Positions 106 through 38,666 of a stretch of 38,727 nt of DNA are shown here, piece by piece. The DNA lies in UHGV virus genome UHGV-2005300; one strand, written 5' to 3'. Within the stretch, counting starts at the first letter, position 1, and the number at the start of each line of letters is the position of its first letter. Origin of the DNA: a virus. The translations under genes and the position numbers were made by a program. The notes below the pieces were generated by a model. The model was not told the origin of the DNA and made no database searches. It saw nothing but the letters and a program-made list of their open reading frames with translations.

Positions 106-120
106 TGGTGTCCCCTGCAG
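106..120. repeat. attL core TGGTGTCCCCTGCAG (displaced copy of the tRNA 3' end)
   Basis: Exact 15-bp match to 38652-38666; sequence diverges immediately on both sides. Confidence 0.8.
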
Positions 121-193
121 ACATCTACTTGAGGCGGCAGGGGATTGATTGGAATGGTGTTTTTTAGATGTGAAAAATATTTTACCCGCTATT

Positions 194-394
194 TTACCCA
201 TTGGCGCGGCTTAAGAGCTTATTTTTGAATTCACAATGGTCACGATATAACCATCTTGCTCGTCCGTGGATAACTTTGGCTTTAGGCAGGTCGCCGGACT
301 TAATCCGGTCATAGATGAAGGTCTTACCGAAGCCAGTATCAGCCATGATGAATTTCAAATCAACCAGTGAATCAGGTTGTAGTTCGTGTTGCAT
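194..394 (-). CDS. AlpA-family excisionase / small DNA-binding regulator
   Basis: 66 aa; motif MADTGFGKTFIYDRIKSGDLPKAKV resembles AlpA/Xis-type helix-turn-helix; GGAGA ribosome-binding site; last gene before attL. Confidence 0.6.
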   Translation of the reverse strand: MQHELQPDSLVDLKFIMADTGFGKTFIYDRIKSGDLPKAKVIHGRARWLYRDHCEFKNKLLSRANG

Positions 395-436
395 GAGTGC
401 TATCTCCGAATATGGAATCGAACCTGCAAATCAGGT

Positions 437-460
437 AATAAAAAAACCGCATTGATGCGG
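437..460 (-). terminator. Intrinsic terminator upstream of xis
   Basis: Minus-strand RNA CCGCAUcaAUGCGG followed by U7. Confidence 0.5.
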
Positions 461-517
461 CGATGGTAGGTCTGGATATCTTGATAAATGAAAATGCCTC
501 ATCGAGTGTGAGGCGGG

Positions 518-862
518 TTAGTCCTTGCGTAGCTCGCTGATTCTTCTGTAAGTCTCTGGTGCTTTGTTTCCGTGTATCTTCATTTCAGACTTCAACAGAG
601 CAACGAGAGAATCCCATTCGTTGAGGATGCCTTTGAATGCCGGAACGCGCTTTGCAACCTTGTCGAATGAATCTCTGATTTCTGGAATCTGCTCAACAAG
701 TGCAACGCATCGCCGGAAATCGGCTGCGTCATGTGGAGCACCGAAGCTATGACCATAGATATTCTTTTTCAGTCCACATGCGATTGAGGCAAGAGTTGCG
801 CTACTGATGCCGACATCGCCAGTCGATTGCCATTTCAAAACCTTCATAGCCAAATCTGACAT
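518..862 (-). CDS. Hypothetical protein (114 aa)
   Basis: ORF-track ORF 518-889 trimmed to the ATG at 862 (MSDLAMK...), because the upstream ATG lies inside the terminator hairpin. Confidence 0.5.
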   Translation of the reverse strand: MSDLAMKVLKWQSTGDVGISSATLASIACGLKKNIYGHSFGAPHDAADFRRCVALVEQIPEIRDSFDKVAKRVPAFKGILNEWDSLVALLKSEMKIHGNKAPETYRRISELRKD

Positions 863-874
863 TTCTTGTCTACA

Positions 875-897
875 ATAAAAAACCGCCATCAGGCGGC
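875..897 (-). terminator. Intrinsic terminator
   Basis: Minus-strand hairpin CCGCC-UGAU-GGCGG followed by U6; overlaps the stop of the 55-aa gene. Confidence 0.5.
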
Positions 898-36339: not shown

Positions 36340-36387
36340 TAATACTAAAAAGTAGATTTATTTTGTAAGTTTTTTATTATTGTTTAT

Positions 36388-36410
36388 AAGGCCAAAAAAC
36401 TTTTGGCCTT
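36388..36410. terminator. Bidirectional terminator between the convergent tailspike and acetyltransferase genes
   Basis: Perfect 10-bp stem AAGGCCAAAA-aac-TTTTGGCCTT. Confidence 0.65.
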
Positions 36411-36424
36411 ATGCTAAATGAGAT

Positions 36425-37030
36425 TTATAGTAATCGCCTATCCCATTTCACACCTGTTTTGATTATTTTTGCTGGAGTACCAGCAATAATAATATTGCTT
36501 TCAGAAAATTTACCAGTTACAGTTGCCCTTGCGCCAACAATAGTTTCATCTGGAATAAAGGCACCTTTCATGATGAGCGCATCAAGACCAATCCAGCACT
36601 TATCTCCTATTGATATGTTTTTTGCTGGATTTATCCTGTTTCCATCCATATCTGTTATTGAATGTGAGTCTGTTGTTCTTATTTGAACGCCTGACGCAAA
36701 CATGCAATTAACACCAATTGAAACACTAGTCCCCTCTTGAATGTTTATATTGGTGTTCTGAAAGCTTGTAAGGCTTGATATCACGAGACAGTTCCCATCG
36801 CCTCTCATATTTACAGAGCCAACTATAGAACACCTCTCACCGATATTAATAGTATTATTATCACCATTTATCAAAATGGATAAATTATGTATTTTTGCAT
36901 GCTTTTCTATATTTATATGATTGTTCTTTCCATTAATGCGAATAGATATTTTTTTTATGTCAGCATCAACATGATTTATAGAGTTATTTTCTCCGGAAAT
37001 CTGTTTTATTATATCCATCACTATACTCAA
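36425..37030 (-). CDS. Hexapeptide-repeat (left-handed beta-helix) acetyltransferase, likely surface-polysaccharide O-acetylase
   Basis: 201 aa with repeated [LIV]-G-x-x-x-x hexads (INIGERCSIVGSVNMRGDG..., ISIGDKCWIGLDALIMKGAFI); very AT-rich gene and upstream region. Confidence 0.8.
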   Translation of the reverse strand: MSIVMDIIKQISGENNSINHVDADIKKISIRINGKNNHINIEKHAKIHNLSILINGDNNTINIGERCSIVGSVNMRGDGNCLVISSLTSFQNTNINIQEGTSVSIGVNCMFASGVQIRTTDSHSITDMDGNRINPAKNISIGDKCWIGLDALIMKGAFIPDETIVGARATVTGKFSESNIIIAGTPAKIIKTGVKWDRRLL

Positions 37031-37332
37031 TTATTTTGATTGATTTATTTACAACTTATTAATGTATATGTCATAAATTATATCATAATTTTAATAAAAA
37101 TCAATATACGAGGTTTTGCATGTATATATTGTAATTTATTGCATATGTTGATAATAAATTTTATTTGATGCTTAACATAATTATCATGAAATTAGTTATT
37201 CAATAACTCTTGTTTTTTAATGTGACAATCACGTTGCTTATATTTAATAATGAAACTATATGGTTTTATTATTAAATTTGTGTTTACCTAGATGAATTAA
37301 TTGTTTTATTTATGATTTTTATCATGGAATCA

Positions 37333-38490
37333 TTAATCCACCTTTTCATCAACCCAATCCGCCCACCACTGCATCATTTCTCTGCGCTTATCGAGATACT
37401 GAGCATGGTTGTAAATCCCGCGCACAGATCCGCCGTTGGCATGTGCCAGTTGCGCTTCAATAGCATCAGCAGGCCATTCGTGCTCGTTCATAATCGTGCT
37501 GAATTCATGCCTGAATCCGTGACCGCTTTCCAGACCCTCATAGCCGATTTGTTTGATCACAAGTAGCACCGCGTTCTCGCAGATTGGCTTTTTCTTATCG
37601 TTGCGCCCGGCAAAAACAAACTCTGATACTGGTTTGGTGATTGAGCTTATCGTAGTGAGAAGTTCAACTACCTGGTCTGACATAGGAACTACATGAATTT
37701 TGCGTCCCTTCATCACACTGGCGTCGATAGTGATAATCCTGTTTTCAAAATCGACGTTCTTCCATTGCATGGAGCGAAGCTCTTTCGTTCTTAGGGCTGT
37801 GTAGCGTAAAACTTTGGTCGCAATGAGCGATACGATGCTTCCTGAAAATGTTGCCAGTGCTTTGTTGAATGCCGGGATATGGTCTGCAGGAAGAAACGGG
37901 AAGTTCTTCTTGCGGTATCCCTTCATGGCGTCAGCAAGGTCAGGTGCTGGGTTATATTTAGCCCTTCCGGTGACAATAGCGTAACGGAAAACCTCGCCGC
38001 ATCTTCTGCGGGCTTTGTTGGCTCGCTCCATTGCACCGCGATCTTCAAATCTGCGGATTACTTCCAGCAGTTGCATCGGCTCAATATCCTGAATCTCAAG
38101 ACCGCCGATGATGGGTAAAATGTCGTCATCAAACATTTTGGCAAGTTCAGTTGCATAGCCTACTGACCAGACTTGCTTCTTGTGCTCGTACCATTCCTTG
38201 TAAATCGCACTAAATGAATTGTTGTTAGACGAAGCCTTTTTCGCCTTTACCGGATCGATGCCAACCGAGATGTCTTTCCTCGCAGTCCATGCCTTATCCC
38301 TTGCTTCCTGCAAAGTCATAAGCGGATATTTTCCTACGGTCAGGATTTTCTCCTTACCGTCAATCTTGTAGCGAAGCTGCCATACCTTTTTCCCGGATAC
38401 AGGGACATAAAGGTACAGGCCATTACCATCGAGAAGGCGGTATGGTTTTTCTTTCGGCTTTGCTGCTTCAATCTGCTTAACAGTGAGCAT
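37333..38490 (-). CDS. intS: Tyrosine integrase (IntS/P4-type)
   Basis: 385 aa from the ATG MLTVKQIEAAKPKEKPYRLLDGNGLY; catalytic HGFRHEF and C-terminal Tyr region; starts about 160 bp from the tRNA 3' end. Confidence 0.9.
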   Translation of the reverse strand: MLTVKQIEAAKPKEKPYRLLDGNGLYLYVPVSGKKVWQLRYKIDGKEKILTVGKYPLMTLQEARDKAWTARKDISVGIDPVKAKKASSNNNSFSAIYKEWYEHKKQVWSVGYATELAKMFDDDILPIIGGLEIQDIEPMQLLEVIRRFEDRGAMERANKARRRCGEVFRYAIVTGRAKYNPAPDLADAMKGYRKKNFPFLPADHIPAFNKALATFSGSIVSLIATKVLRYTALRTKELRSMQWKNVDFENRIITIDASVMKGRKIHVVPMSDQVVELLTTISSITKPVSEFVFAGRNDKKKPICENAVLLVIKQIGYEGLESGHGFRHEFSTIMNEHEWPADAIEAQLAHANGGSVRGIYNHAQYLDKRREMMQWWADWVDEKVD

Positions 38491-38651
38491 GGGTAAAAAT
38501 CCGGTGGGTAAAATTATTTTATCCACTTTTTACCCGTCATGGAGTGCGGCTGTCAACGATCTGACGCGAACCATTACGAACTGTGAATCTACGGAAGGCT
38601 TGATATTCAGGGGATTTTGCGGACTGGTACGGATGGGAGCGAACTGATAAA

Positions 38652-38666
38652 TGGTGTCCCCTGCAG
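38652..38666. repeat. attR core TGGTGTCCCCTGCAG (3' end of the intact tRNA)
   Basis: Identical to 106-120. Confidence 0.8.

What the first reader, a model, noticed from the sequence alone, without database searches (positions are those of the whole stretch)
106..38666. Mosaic genome and att geometry: lambda-type regulation, P22-type virion, integrase and excisionase at opposite prophage ends
Regulatory and lysis genes recalled as lambda (N, nut sites, cII, Q, S, R, Rz) are combined with a P22-like virion module, a non-lambda immunity pair and an IntS-type integrase. The att core lies between xis (194-394) and int (37333-38490) on the phage circle, so in the prophage the two recombination genes are ~38 kb apart, unlike lambda and P22 where they are adjacent.
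Basis: partly seen in the sequence, partly recalled or inferred. Interest (0 to 1): 0.45.

Follow-up and report, generated by a model that had tools for sequence, protein, structure and literature searches.

The report
argW prophage with split int/xis
This is an ordinary mosaic P22-like/lambda-like prophage sitting in the argW tRNA gene, and its integrase and excisionase genes lie at opposite prophage ends because it carries the already well-studied IntS/TorI recombination module of KplE1, HK620 and Sf6.

Summary
A 15-nt direct repeat (106-120 and 38652-38666) bounds a 38.5-kb prophage. The right copy is the 3' end of tRNA-Arg(CCT). Joining the two flanks recreates an empty argW site found intact in 1471 complete E. 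coli genomes. Free phage genomes (IME10, Sf6) join int to xis through a single core copy.

The "xis" is 66/66 identical to TorI of K-12 prophage KplE1 and to Sf6 gp18. The integrase is 379/385 identical to IntS. Both att arms, the intS promoter and the five TorI sites are conserved.

The mosaic is real:
- N, nutL, nutR, cII, Q, S and R are 93-99% lambda-like.
- The virion module is about 78% P22-like.
- The immunity region is that of phage vB_EcoP-720R6 (Nil2-type), although the cI C-terminal half is lambda-like.

The int/xis-across-attP geometry was annotated in the Sf6 GenBank record. It was analysed experimentally for KplE1 (Panis 2010, 2012) and stated explicitly for Kapi1 (2022). The finding is correct but already known, and of low interest.

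Two side observations deserve follow-up:
- A conserved tRNA T-loop box lies 30 nt upstream of torI.
- An unannotated, covariation-supported tmRNA-like RNA cassette lies between Q and S (16395-16790). It is shared by hundreds of enterobacterial phages.

The parts
1..105 (.). Host chromosomal flank on the side of argW away from yfdC
   Evidence: Contiguous with the tRNA in empty-site genomes. In E. coli 1190 it lies beside a DUF4942 fragment and an oligosaccharide MFS transporter gene.
106..120 (.). Left copy of the att core (TGGTGTCCCCTGCAG). This is the junction called attR in KplE1 nomenclature.
   Evidence: Matches 15 of the 16 nt of the KplE1 core CTGCAGGGGACACCAT.
121..199 (-). P arm of attP, with two arm-type GGGTAAAA repeats (180-187 and 192-199)
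   Evidence: Nearly identical to KplE1 and Sf6. GGGTAAAA occurs 6 times against 0.8 expected, and 5 of the 6 lie at the att arms.
194..394 (-). torI, the excisionase (recombination directionality factor)
   Evidence: 66/66 aa identical to K-12 TorI and Sf6 gp18. RefSeq annotates the homologue as TorI. Weak HTH_17 Pfam hit.
414..429 (-). T-loop box. It reads TTGCAGGTTCGATTCC on the torI strand and equals the 16 nt of argW just 5' of the core. It contains the TorI-site pentamer GTTCG.
   Evidence: (D13).
446..514 (-). Two intrinsic-terminator-like hairpins (461-446 and 514-496) between the early-left genes and torI
518..7204 (-). Early-left (pL) operon. It includes a lambda orf homologue, a truncated UmuD-like gene, DUF2737, Abc2 anti-RecBCD, Erf, Kil, cIII and an anti-restriction gene.
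   Evidence: PHROGs. PGAP names from the 98% identical stretch in strain 1190.
7245..7568 (-). N antiterminator, lambda type
   Evidence: Pfam N36, 1.5e-26. 96% nt identity to lambda N.
7837..7867 (-). nutL: boxB GCCCTGAAGAAGGGC (7837-7851) and boxA-like GGCTCTTA (7860-7867, one mismatch)
8061..8720 (-). cI-type repressor. HTH plus S24 peptidase. The N-terminal domain is non-lambda; the C-terminal 405 nt are 94% lambda.
8835..9047 (+). Cro-like HTH regulator, non-lambda. The whole immunity region (7560-9110) is 100% identical to phage vB_EcoP-720R6; its cI-cro part (about 8061-9047) is 93% identical to the Nil2 / Stx-phage type.
9056..9087 (+). nutR: boxA CGCTCTTA and boxB GCCCTGAAAAAGGGC
9167..9460 (+). 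cII, lambda type
   Evidence: Pfam Phage_CII, 9e-48. 98% nt identity to lambda.
9632..12480 (+). Replication genes: O-like initiator (9632-10492, with iteron-like repeats at 10030-10071) and a toprim primase/helicase (10600-12480). This is not lambda P.
   Evidence: (D6).
12558..16053 (+). nin region (NinB/D/E/F, KilAC antirepressor, RusA, NinH) and Q antiterminator (15430-16053)
16395..16790 (+). tmRNA-like RNA cassette in the late leader. Tag ORF ANDDVVLMAA** at about 16470-16505, and a T-arm at 16757-16773. This is a side finding, not part of the att geometry.
17026..18243 (+). Lysis genes: S holin, R endolysin (lambda-like) and Rz (its 3' part, 17821-18234, also matches P22 gene 15)
20152..34513 (+). 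P22-like virion module: small and large terminase, portal, scaffold, coat, gp4, gp10, tail needle, gp14, and ejection proteins gp7/20/16
   Evidence: About 78% nt identity to P22. PGAP names in the 99.9% identical strain 1190 prophage.
34678..36339 (+). Tailspike: P22-type head-binding domain plus a different receptor-binding part
   Evidence: Pfam Head_binding, 3e-66. PHROGs tail spike.
36425..37030 (-). Hexapeptide-repeat acyltransferase, a candidate lysogenic-conversion gene, at the position of Sf6 oac
37333..38490 (-). intS, a P4-family tyrosine integrase
   Evidence: 379/385 aa identical to K-12 IntS. Pfam Arm-DNA-bind_3, Phage_int_M and Phage_integrase.
38491..38651 (-). P' arm of attP overlapping the intS promoter. 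-35 TTGACA at 38556-38551 and -10 TAAAAA at 38532-38527. Arm-type repeats at 38491-38498, 38506-38513 and 38528-38535. TorI-type pentamers at 38644-38640, 38624-38620, 38581-38577, 38571-38567 and 38561-38557.
   Evidence: Differs from KplE1 at only three positions between the core and the intS ATG. Motif positions. Promoter and site definitions from PMC2951348.
38652..38726 (-). tRNA-Arg(CCT) (argW). Its last 15 nt (38652-38666) are the right copy of the att core.

Best explanation
The window is a complete-looking lambdoid prophage of the P22-like (Lederbergvirus) group, integrated into the 3' end of argW. It uses the IntS/TorI recombination module first dissected in the K-12 cryptic prophage KplE1 (CPS-53). 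HK620, Sf6, CUS-3, Kapi1 and IME10 share the same module.

Geometry. On the phage circle the order on one strand is: pL operon, terminators, torI, P arm, 15/16-nt core, P' arm with the intS promoter, intS. Recombination at the core therefore cuts between torI and intS. This puts intS next to the tRNA at one prophage end and torI at the other.

Inferred regulation (from KplE1 work plus sequence identity):
1. In the lysogen, intS is transcribed at a low level from its own promoter inside the att arm. IntS and TorI both repress it.
2. On induction, cleavage of the S24-type repressor opens pL. Lambda-type N acting at nutL carries transcription through the terminator-like hairpins into torI.
3. TorI, pre-existing IntS and IHF excise the genome.
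4. TorI then holds intS down.

Only in the circular form is intS again downstream of pL and torI.

The rest of the genome is a typical lambdoid mosaic. It combines lambda-type N/nut/cII/Q/S/R, a Nil2/720R6-type immunity region, a non-lambda primase-helicase, P22-type virion genes, a novel tailspike distal part and an acyltransferase moron.
For: Shown here:
- Exact junctions and the empty site.
- attP contiguity in free phage genomes.
- TorI 66/66 and IntS 379/385 identity.
- Both arms are nearly identical to KplE1 and Sf6.
- Arm-type repeats are enriched at the arms.
- Five GTTCG/GTCCG/GATCG pentamers lie within the 161-nt P' arm, against about 0.3 expected.
- Promoter hexamers are conserved.
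- Terminator-like hairpins lie upstream of torI.
- N, nut, cII and Q identity to lambda.
- P22-like virion genes.
- Immunity region identity.

From the literature:
- IntS and TorI functions, the 16-nt core, the intS promoter overlapping the att arm, repression by IntS and TorI, and uncoupled int and RDF transcription (PMC2951348).
- Module conservation and RDF identity in HK620 and Sf6 (PMC3509656).
- An explicit statement that attP lies between int and xis in Kapi1, Sf6, HK620 and KplE1 (PMC8787464).
Against: - Nothing was measured in this strain. Inducibility, excision and N-dependent read-through into torI are inferences.
- No complete E. coli RefSeq genome holds the identical prophage. The best match, strain 1190, has different early-left and immunity segments, so intactness cannot be taken from a characterised twin.
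- nutL boxA has one mismatch.
- How Int is made without TorI during lysogenisation is not explained by the sequence.
Confidence: 0.93

Rival explanations
1. torI and its 300-bp surroundings are a remnant of a second, older element lying in tandem. The true left end of the functional prophage would then be the second tRNA-derived piece at 414-429, and the phage would have no excisionase across attP.
For: A second exact 16-nt match to argW lies at 414-429, immediately beyond torI (D13). Tandem elements at this site do exist, for example a Hafnia locus where the torI core is followed by a P4-like integrase.
Against: Virion-derived genomes (IME10, Sf6, HZ41) carry torI, the P arm, one core and int contiguously. 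The empty site is recreated by removing 121-38666, not 430-38681. The 414-429 piece does not overlap the CCA end and lies at a fixed -30 from the torI start in many genera.
Confidence: 0.02
2. The separation of int and xis is a strain-specific rearrangement or an assembly artefact, not a property of the phage.
For: None beyond the unusual look compared with lambda and P22.
Against: The same layout is seen in K-12 KplE1 and E. coli 1190. torI lies next to this flank in dozens of other complete genomes. It also matches the published descriptions.
Confidence: 0.01
3. The prophage is cryptic, like KplE1. The recombination module would then work only as a host-domesticated excision switch and TorR inhibitor, not as part of a viable phage.
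For: TorI was first found as a TorR inhibitor, and KplE1 is defective yet excisable. One early-left gene is truncated (UmuD-like).
Against: All lambdoid modules are present with long intact ORFs. 29 kb are 99.9% identical to another strain's prophage. Close relatives are isolated phages.
Confidence: 0.1

Closest known systems
KplE1 / CPS-53 recombination module of E. coli K-12 (IntS, TorI, attL, attR)
   Same: Same tRNA target and the same core. IntS is 98% and TorI 100% identical. Arm sequences, arm-type repeats, the five TorI pentamers and the intS promoter are conserved. int and the RDF lie at opposite prophage ends.
   Different: KplE1 is a 10-kb remnant with no repressor or lytic genes. 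Here the module sits in a full 38.5-kb lambdoid genome, with torI at the end of an N-antiterminated pL operon. The host flank differs, so the repeat is 15 nt rather than 16.
Shigella phage Sf6, coliphages HK620, CUS-3, Kapi1 and IME10 (P22-like phages integrating at argW)
   Same: Same int - attP - torI arrangement on the circle, and a P22-like podovirus virion module. A conversion gene lies between tailspike and int in Sf6. The recombination module is 96-97% identical at nt level.
   Different: Different coat/scaffold lineage from Sf6 (here P22-type), and different tailspike distal part, immunity region and early-left genes. The acyltransferase is a hexapeptide-repeat type, not Sf6 Oac.
Phage lambda
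   Same: N, nutL, nutR, cII, the cI C-terminal domain, ren-ninB, ninD-E, Q with the pR' region, S and R at 93-99% nt identity.
   Different: In lambda the order is pL - xis - int - attP, so both genes stay together in the prophage. The virion, replication gene P, immunity specificity and integrase family are all different.
Salmonella phage P22
   Same: Virion gene order and about 78% nt identity from terminase to gp10 and from gp14 to gp20. Erf and Abc2 recombination genes, and the 3' part of Rz, are also shared.
   Different: P22 integrates at thrW (my own knowledge) with adjacent int and xis of another family. It has an immI region (mnt-arc-ant) that is absent here.
Satellite phage P4 (Int / Vis), and P2/186 (Int / Cox)
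   Same: The integrase belongs to the same family as P4 Int (Arm-DNA-bind_3 domain; P4 family assignment from my own knowledge). Its gene reads away from the tRNA, with the promoter inside the att arm. int is repressed by Int and the RDF, and int and RDF transcription are uncoupled (discussion of PMC2951348).
   Different: Different RDF families and genome contexts. The published mode of Vis action differs.

Membership tests
IntS/TorI (KplE1-HK620-Sf6 type) argW recombination module | Integration into the 3' end of tRNA-Arg(CCU), with a duplicated core CTGCAGGGGACACCA(T) | tested here: met
IntS/TorI (KplE1-HK620-Sf6 type) argW recombination module | IntS-type tyrosine integrase next to the tRNA gene, in the same orientation, tRNA first | tested here: met
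   379/385 identity to IntS and the expected domain set. Layout.
IntS/TorI (KplE1-HK620-Sf6 type) argW recombination module | TorI-family RDF encoded at the other prophage end, so attP lies between RDF and int on the circle | tested here: met
   66/66 identity. Free-phage junctions.
IntS/TorI (KplE1-HK620-Sf6 type) argW recombination module | intS promoter inside the att arm, overlapped by arm-type IntS sites and five TorI sites (GTTCG / GTCCG / GATCG) | tested here: met
   Sequence-level conservation only, measured against the definitions.
IntS/TorI (KplE1-HK620-Sf6 type) argW recombination module | TorI-dependent excision, and repression of intS by IntS and TorI | not testable with these tools
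   Needs induction, PCR and reporter assays.
P22-like (Lederbergvirus) virion module | P22 gene order: terminase, portal, scaffold, coat, gp4, gp10, gp26 needle, gp14, gp7/20/16 ejection proteins, and a tailspike with the P22 head-binding domain | tested here: met
Lambda-type N/Q antitermination circuitry | N with the arginine-rich N-terminal peptide, nutL and nutR with boxA and boxB, and a lambda-type Q with the pR' region | tested here: met
   nutL boxA has one mismatch.
Lambda immunity (imm-lambda) | Lambda cI DNA-binding domain, cro and operators | tested here: not met
   Only the cI C-terminal 405 nt match lambda. The region is identical to vB_EcoP-720R6 and 93% to Nil2-type.
tmRNA (for the side finding at 16395-16790) | Reaches the Rfam gathering score or ARAGORN's default threshold | tested here: not met
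   The Rfam tmRNA-family models score 17-26 bits against gathering scores of 47 (RF00023, RF04321) and 84 (RF01850). ARAGORN calls it only at 80% thresholds.
tmRNA (for the side finding at 16395-16790) | Resume codon GCA and a short tag ORF ending in hydrophobic-Ala-Ala-type residues plus stop codons, followed by pseudoknots | tested here: met
   ANDDVVLMAA** here against the host ANDENYALAA**. The ORF is conserved in 36 loci. The hairpin plus two pseudoknots are supported by covariation.
tmRNA (for the side finding at 16395-16790) | tRNA-like domain with a G3.U70 acceptor stem and a CCA end, chargeable with alanine | tested here: inconclusive
   A T-arm GCCGG-TTCGATT-CCGGC and an acceptor-like pairing exist. 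No G3.U70 appears in either register, and the 3' tail reads ACCC or C-CCA depending on the register.

The most novel reading that the evidence does not exclude
The geometry may carry its own history and an undescribed control point. The 16 nt of argW that precede the core are also present in the phage, 293 bp away on the far side of torI (414-429). In effect, a 31-nt tRNA-identity block looks split by torI plus the P arm.

The central GGTTCGAT of this piece sits at -29/-30 from the torI start (-36 in Serratia) in 10 of 15 lineages from different genera, although the flanking sequence has diverged. It also contains GTTCG, the pentamer that defines TorI binding sites.

The reading not excluded is that this box is a TorI (or IntS) operator that autoregulates the excisionase, and/or the scar of the event that placed xis across attP from int.
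Probability: 0.25. Interest if true: 0.4.

Novelty: already known. Interest (0 to 1): 0.12.

Why it matters
For the finding as given, it matters little. It adds one more example of a module whose layout and regulation are already published, inside a routine lambdoid mosaic. It is useful mainly for annotation. The 66-aa ORF should be called TorI/excisionase, the prophage ends are exact, and excision control should be expected to hinge on torI expression rather than on a lambda-like xis-int operon.

The window is more valuable for two things outside the finding. One is a conserved T-loop box in front of torI. The other is an unannotated tmRNA-like RNA family in the late leader that is shared by very different enterobacterial phages. 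If that RNA is functional, it would bear on how phages handle ribosome rescue.

Tried and rejected
- **Exact source genome.** I looked among 5426 complete E. coli genomes. None covers at least 80% of the first 25 kb. The best is strain 1190, at 76%.
- **T-arm RNA mimic.** I tested whether the box at 414-429 is a T-arm RNA mimic. The would-be stem forms only 2-4 of 5 pairs in most lineages; only the Edwardsiella / Pantoea stewartii box can form a full 5-bp stem, with an 8-nt loop. I rejected a conserved hairpin in favour of sequence-level conservation.
- **cII-type pI promoter.** I looked for TTGC-N6-TTGC upstream of torI, where the Sf6 record marks a 'possible pI'. The window has TTAC-N5-TTGC and Sf6 has TTGC-N5-TTGC, so there is no match.
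- **Consensus promoter scan.** It does not pick up the published intS promoter, which has an 18-nt spacer and a TAAAAA -10. I located it by alignment instead.
- **Papers not held.** Panis 2007 JBC and Menouni 2013 PNAS could not be read, so their attR and torI-upstream mapping could not be checked. One PMC id I guessed was an unrelated paper.
- **RNA searches at standard thresholds.** Rfam at gathering thresholds finds only the tRNA, and default ARAGORN finds no tmRNA.
- **Low-coding stretch 2213-3015.** Weak Rfam hits there (AgrB, RNAI; E 0.09-0.9) were treated as chance.
- **IMG/VR 14-mer scan.** It is contaminated by chance matches and by ordinary tmRNAs such as L048, L076 and L087. I filtered these out before the structure test.

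
Full report

Yes. TGGTGTCCCCTGCAG occurs at 106-120 and 38652-38666. A 15-mer pair somewhere in 38.7 kb is not rare by itself; I estimate about 0.7 pairs by chance. The context is what decides it.

- The right copy is exactly the 3' end, CCA included, of tRNA-Arg(CCT) at 38652-38726 on the minus strand (Rfam tRNA 63 bits).
- I fused window 1-105 to 38652-38727. The 181-nt product matches contiguously at 100% in many complete E. coli genomes, and 1471 genomes cover at least 80% of it. The flanks are host DNA, and deleting the segment between the repeats recreates an unoccupied argW site.
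- The virion-derived genome of phage IME10 (JN600960) runs from window 38666 into window 106 through one copy of the core, at record 12717-12731.
- The Sf6 GenBank record annotates the 'attP core' between gene 16 (integrase) and gene 18.

**2. What the two recombination genes are**

ORF 194-394(-) encodes a 66-aa protein identical at all 66 residues to TorI of E. coli K-12 and to Sf6 gp18. RefSeq names its homologues TorI. ORF 37333-38490(-) is 379/385 identical to K-12 IntS. It carries the Arm-DNA-bind_3, Phage_int_M and Phage_integrase domains.

The DNA between the tRNA and the int start codon differs from K-12 at three positions only. The stretch from upstream of torI to the core is equally conserved in K-12 and Sf6.

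The features defined experimentally for KplE1 are all present:
- The 16-nt core (15 nt repeated here, because the host flank differs).
- The intS promoter hexamers: TTGACA at 38556-38551 and TAAAAA at 38532-38527.
- Arm-type GGGTAAAA repeats: 6 in the window against 0.8 expected, five of them at the two arms.
- Five pentamers GTTCG, GTCCG, GTTCG, GTTCG and GATCG in the 161-nt int-side arm, where about 0.3 are expected. These are the sequences mutated as TorI sites I1-I5 in PMC2951348.

**3. The mosaic**

*Lambda-like (blastn):*
- N, 96%.
- The nutL block, 99%.
- 405 nt of the cI C-terminal half, 94%.
- nutR-cII, 98%.
- ren/ninB and ninD-E, 97-98%.
- Q with the pR' region, 97%.
- S, R and the first part of Rz, 93%.

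boxA and boxB of nutR, and boxB of nutL, are exact. nutL boxA has one mismatch.

*P22-like:*
- Small terminase through gp10, and gp14 through gp20, about 78%.
- The 3' part of Rz (17821-18234), 93% to P22 gene 15, overlapping the lambda-like stretch that ends at 18054.

*Other sources:*
- The tailspike keeps only the P22 head-binding domain.
- The immunity region (7560-9110) is 100% identical to phage vB_EcoP-720R6. Its cI-cro part (about 8061-9047) is 93% identical to the Nil2 / Stx-phage type.
- Replication uses an O-like initiator plus a toprim primase-helicase, not lambda P.
- A hexapeptide acyltransferase lies between tailspike and int, where Sf6 has oac.

The closest relative overall is a prophage at the same site in E. 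coli strain 1190. It is 99.9% identical over 9399-38727 and 1-1100, but has different early-left genes and a lambda-type cI-rexAB immunity region. That is a textbook module swap.

The repressor is a lambda/non-lambda chimera. The 3' part of Rz also matches P22 gene 15.

**4. How it works**

*Shown by sequence.* On the circle the order on one strand is pL - N - early-left genes - three terminator-like hairpins (897-882, 514-496 and 461-446) - torI - P arm - core - P' arm with the intS promoter - intS. Integration cuts between torI and intS.

*Taken from KplE1 experiments.* intS is transcribed constitutively at a low level from the promoter inside the att arm. It is repressed by IntS at the arm-type site next to the -10 box, and by TorI at I4/I5 next to the -35 box. 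Excision efficiency peaks in a narrow range of IntS concentration. Excision is therefore controlled through RDF supply.

*Inferred for this prophage.* Autocleavage of the S24 repressor opens pL. Lambda-type N loaded at nutL reads through the hairpins into torI. TorI, resident IntS and IHF then excise. Only on the circle can pL transcription continue from torI across attP into intS.

Lambda also places xis before int, but it places attP after int. So integration in lambda separates int from sib, not int from xis.

How Int is supplied without TorI during lysogenisation is not evident from the sequence.

**5. Rivals**

- *torI belongs to an older tandem remnant.* This was prompted by the second tRNA-derived piece at 414-429. 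It fails because free phage genomes carry torI, one core and int contiguously, and because the empty site fits only the 106/38652 junctions.
- *A strain-specific rearrangement or assembly artefact.* This is excluded by the same layout in K-12, in strain 1190, and by torI lying next to this flank in dozens of other complete genomes.
- *The element is cryptic.* This cannot be excluded without induction, but all modules look intact.

**6. Comparison with what is known**

[quoted passage not shown] It is conserved in HK620, Sf6, CUS-3 and prophages of APEC-O1 and UTI89 (PMC2951348). Its RDFs are 100% identical in HK620 and Sf6 (PMC3509656).

All sequence-testable defining features are met, so this prophage is a member. 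The geometry is already known, and the mosaic is routine for P22-like coliphages.

The layout is not universal for TorI homologues. In Proteus the homologue and an integrase gene are adjacent and convergent.

**7. Side finding A: a T-loop box in front of torI**

GGAATCGAACCTGCAA at 414-429 equals 38666-38681 (D13). Those are the 16 nt of argW that directly precede the core, sharing one G with it. The phage therefore carries the last 30 nt of the tRNA in two pieces, separated by the 293 bp that hold torI and the P arm.

The piece is conserved in K-12 and Sf6. I collected torI-homologue loci from other genera. GGTTCGAT sits at -29/-30 from the start codon (-36 in Serratia) in 10 of 15 lineages:
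- Present in Escherichia, Enterobacter, Citrobacter, Serratia, two Pantoea, Edwardsiella, Hafnia and a MAG.
- Absent in Dryocola, Tatumella, Cronobacter, Arsenophonus, Pantoea latae and Proteus.

The flanks have diverged. The 8-mer is expected 0.75 times in all 49 kb examined.

A T-arm hairpin is not conserved. The box does contain GTTCG, the TorI-site pentamer. In other genera the core-proximal flank of attP also reads TTCGAT-gta-TGCAGGGG.

Two readings remain open: an autoregulatory TorI (or IntS) operator, and/or the scar of a longer tRNA-identity block. I could not check the 2007 JBC and 2013 PNAS papers that mapped this side.

**8. Side finding B: a tmRNA-like cassette in the late leader**

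*The element.* Relative to lambda, the Q-S intergenic region holds a 430-nt insertion at 16349-16777.
- Rfam in E-value mode gives sub-threshold tmRNA-family hits. RF00023 matches 16726-16784 at 20 bits (E 6e-6), covering a T-arm and the acceptor 3' strand. RF04321 matches 16448-16502 at 26 bits (E 0.003), covering the resume and tag region.
- ARAGORN finds nothing at default thresholds. At 80% thresholds it calls a 389-nt one-piece tmRNA at 16395-16783 with tag ANDDVVLMAA**. E. coli ssrA gives ANDENYALAA**.

*Distribution.* A distant blastn finds the core in 829 phage records, almost always with no annotation under it. They span very different families:
- Lambdoid HK633, downstream of Q and pR'.
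- Akira.
- Ackermannviridae: Cba120 and Magnus.
- Ounavirinae: SUSP1, lying between tRNA genes.
- Schitoviridae: PhAPEC7.

At least part of the element is present, unannotated, in 470 of 5426 complete E. coli genomes.

*Tag ORF.* Across these phages and IMG/VR contigs, a 10-codon ORF AN[DE]xxxL[AM][AV]A plus stop follows AUAAAU. Both synonymous and conservative changes occur.

*Structure.* On 28 distinct sequences I tested a hand-written structure: a hairpin closing the ORF end, followed by two pseudoknots.

| Measure | Proposed structure | Control |
|---|---|---|
| Cells forming a pair | 94% | 37-44% with partners slid by 1-3 columns |
| Pairs with changes on both sides | 15 of 23 | shuffled mean 7.9 (0 of 500 shuffles reach 15) |
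| Cells with changes on both sides | 71 | shuffled mean 17.6 (0 of 500 shuffles reach 71) |

*Cassette boundaries.* The cassette is bounded by the repeats CAACAGGTAAGAGCATT and AGTGCTCTTATCGTTGTGG (D3, D9).

*tRNA-like part.* 16653-16785 has an acceptor-like pairing, a D-arm-like hairpin and a canonical T-arm. The T-stem shows compensatory changes in Akira. There is no G3.U70, and the CCA end is ambiguous.

*Literature.* A 2014 census of tmRNA genes lists phage ssrA only in mycobacteriophages and Bacillus phage G (PMC4131195). My searches found no description of an enterobacterial phage family.

I therefore report it as a real, conserved, structured RNA with a tmRNA-type tag frame. It could be a working tmRNA, a variant that changes the tag, or a decoy. 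This is outside the assigned finding and only partly followed up.

**9. Verdict**

The novelty rating is 'already known', and interest is low (0.12). The window's real leads are the two side findings, especially the tmRNA-like cassette.

Noticed in passing
window 16395-16790 (+); core 16409-16601; boundary repeats 16333-16349 / 16584-16600 and 16381-16399 / 16641-16659: An unannotated tmRNA-like RNA cassette lies between Q and S. AUAAAU is followed by a 10-codon tag ORF (ANDDVVLMAA**), a hairpin, two covariation-supported pseudoknots and a tRNA-like 3' part with a canonical T-arm. It scores below the Rfam and ARAGORN thresholds, and there is no G3.U70. The core is shared by 829 phage records of very different families, by many IMG/VR contigs and by 470 of 5426 complete E. 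coli genomes, nearly always unannotated. I found no description of it in the literature I could search.
   Followed up: partly
window 414-429 (and 38666-38681); loci L006, L009, L017-L026: The 16 nt of argW that precede the att core are repeated just upstream of torI, so torI plus the P arm sit between two consecutive pieces of the tRNA 3' half. GGTTCGAT is kept at -29/-30 from the torI start (-36 in Serratia) in 10 of 15 lineages from different genera. It contains the TorI-site pentamer GTTCG. This could be a TorI/IntS operator or an evolutionary scar.
   Followed up: partly
L011, L012, L029 (Proteus); L006 (Hafnia): The int/xis-across-attP layout is not universal for TorI homologues. In Proteus the homologue and an integrase gene are adjacent, convergent and overlapping at their 3' ends. 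In Hafnia the torI core junction is followed directly by a P4-like integrase and a P4 cII-like gene, which suggests tandem elements at the same tRNA site.
   Followed up: no
window 8061-8720: The repressor is a chimera. The last 405 nt (S24 peptidase / oligomerisation half) are 94% identical to lambda cI. The HTH half, cro and the operators are of the vB_EcoP-720R6 / Nil2 type. A recombination joint therefore lies inside cI.
   Followed up: partly
window 1758-3015: A UmuD-like ORF matches its family only over the first about 85 residues, so it looks truncated or frameshifted. It is followed by about 800 bp with no long ORF on the operon strand, containing only an 80-aa plus-strand ORF (phrog_28987) and a 20-nt repeat (2609-2628 / 2782-2801). 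The segment 1981-3953 is 98% identical to part of the 108-kb phage Cyrano.
   Followed up: partly
window 882-897 and Sf6 locus L001 about 14590-14615: The hairpin-plus-T-run GCCGCCTGATGGCGGTTTTTTATTG that precedes torI in Sf6 occurs here about 430 bp further upstream, before a different gene pair. The hairpin immediately before torI is a variant (GCCGCATCAATGCGG). These terminator-like hairpins coincide with the edges of sequence similarity between phages (the 'boundary sequences' of the Sf6 record).
   Followed up: no
window 34678-36339 and 36425-37030: The tailspike keeps the P22 head-binding domain, but its distal part matches a PHROG annotated as colanic-acid-degrading tailspike. The adjacent minus-strand gene is a hexapeptide-repeat acyltransferase at the position of Sf6 oac. 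Together they are a candidate receptor-specificity and O-antigen-modification pair.
   Followed up: no
window 7860-7867: nutL boxA reads GGCTCTTA instead of the CGCTCTTA found at nutR in this window. Both boxB sequences are exact.
   Followed up: no
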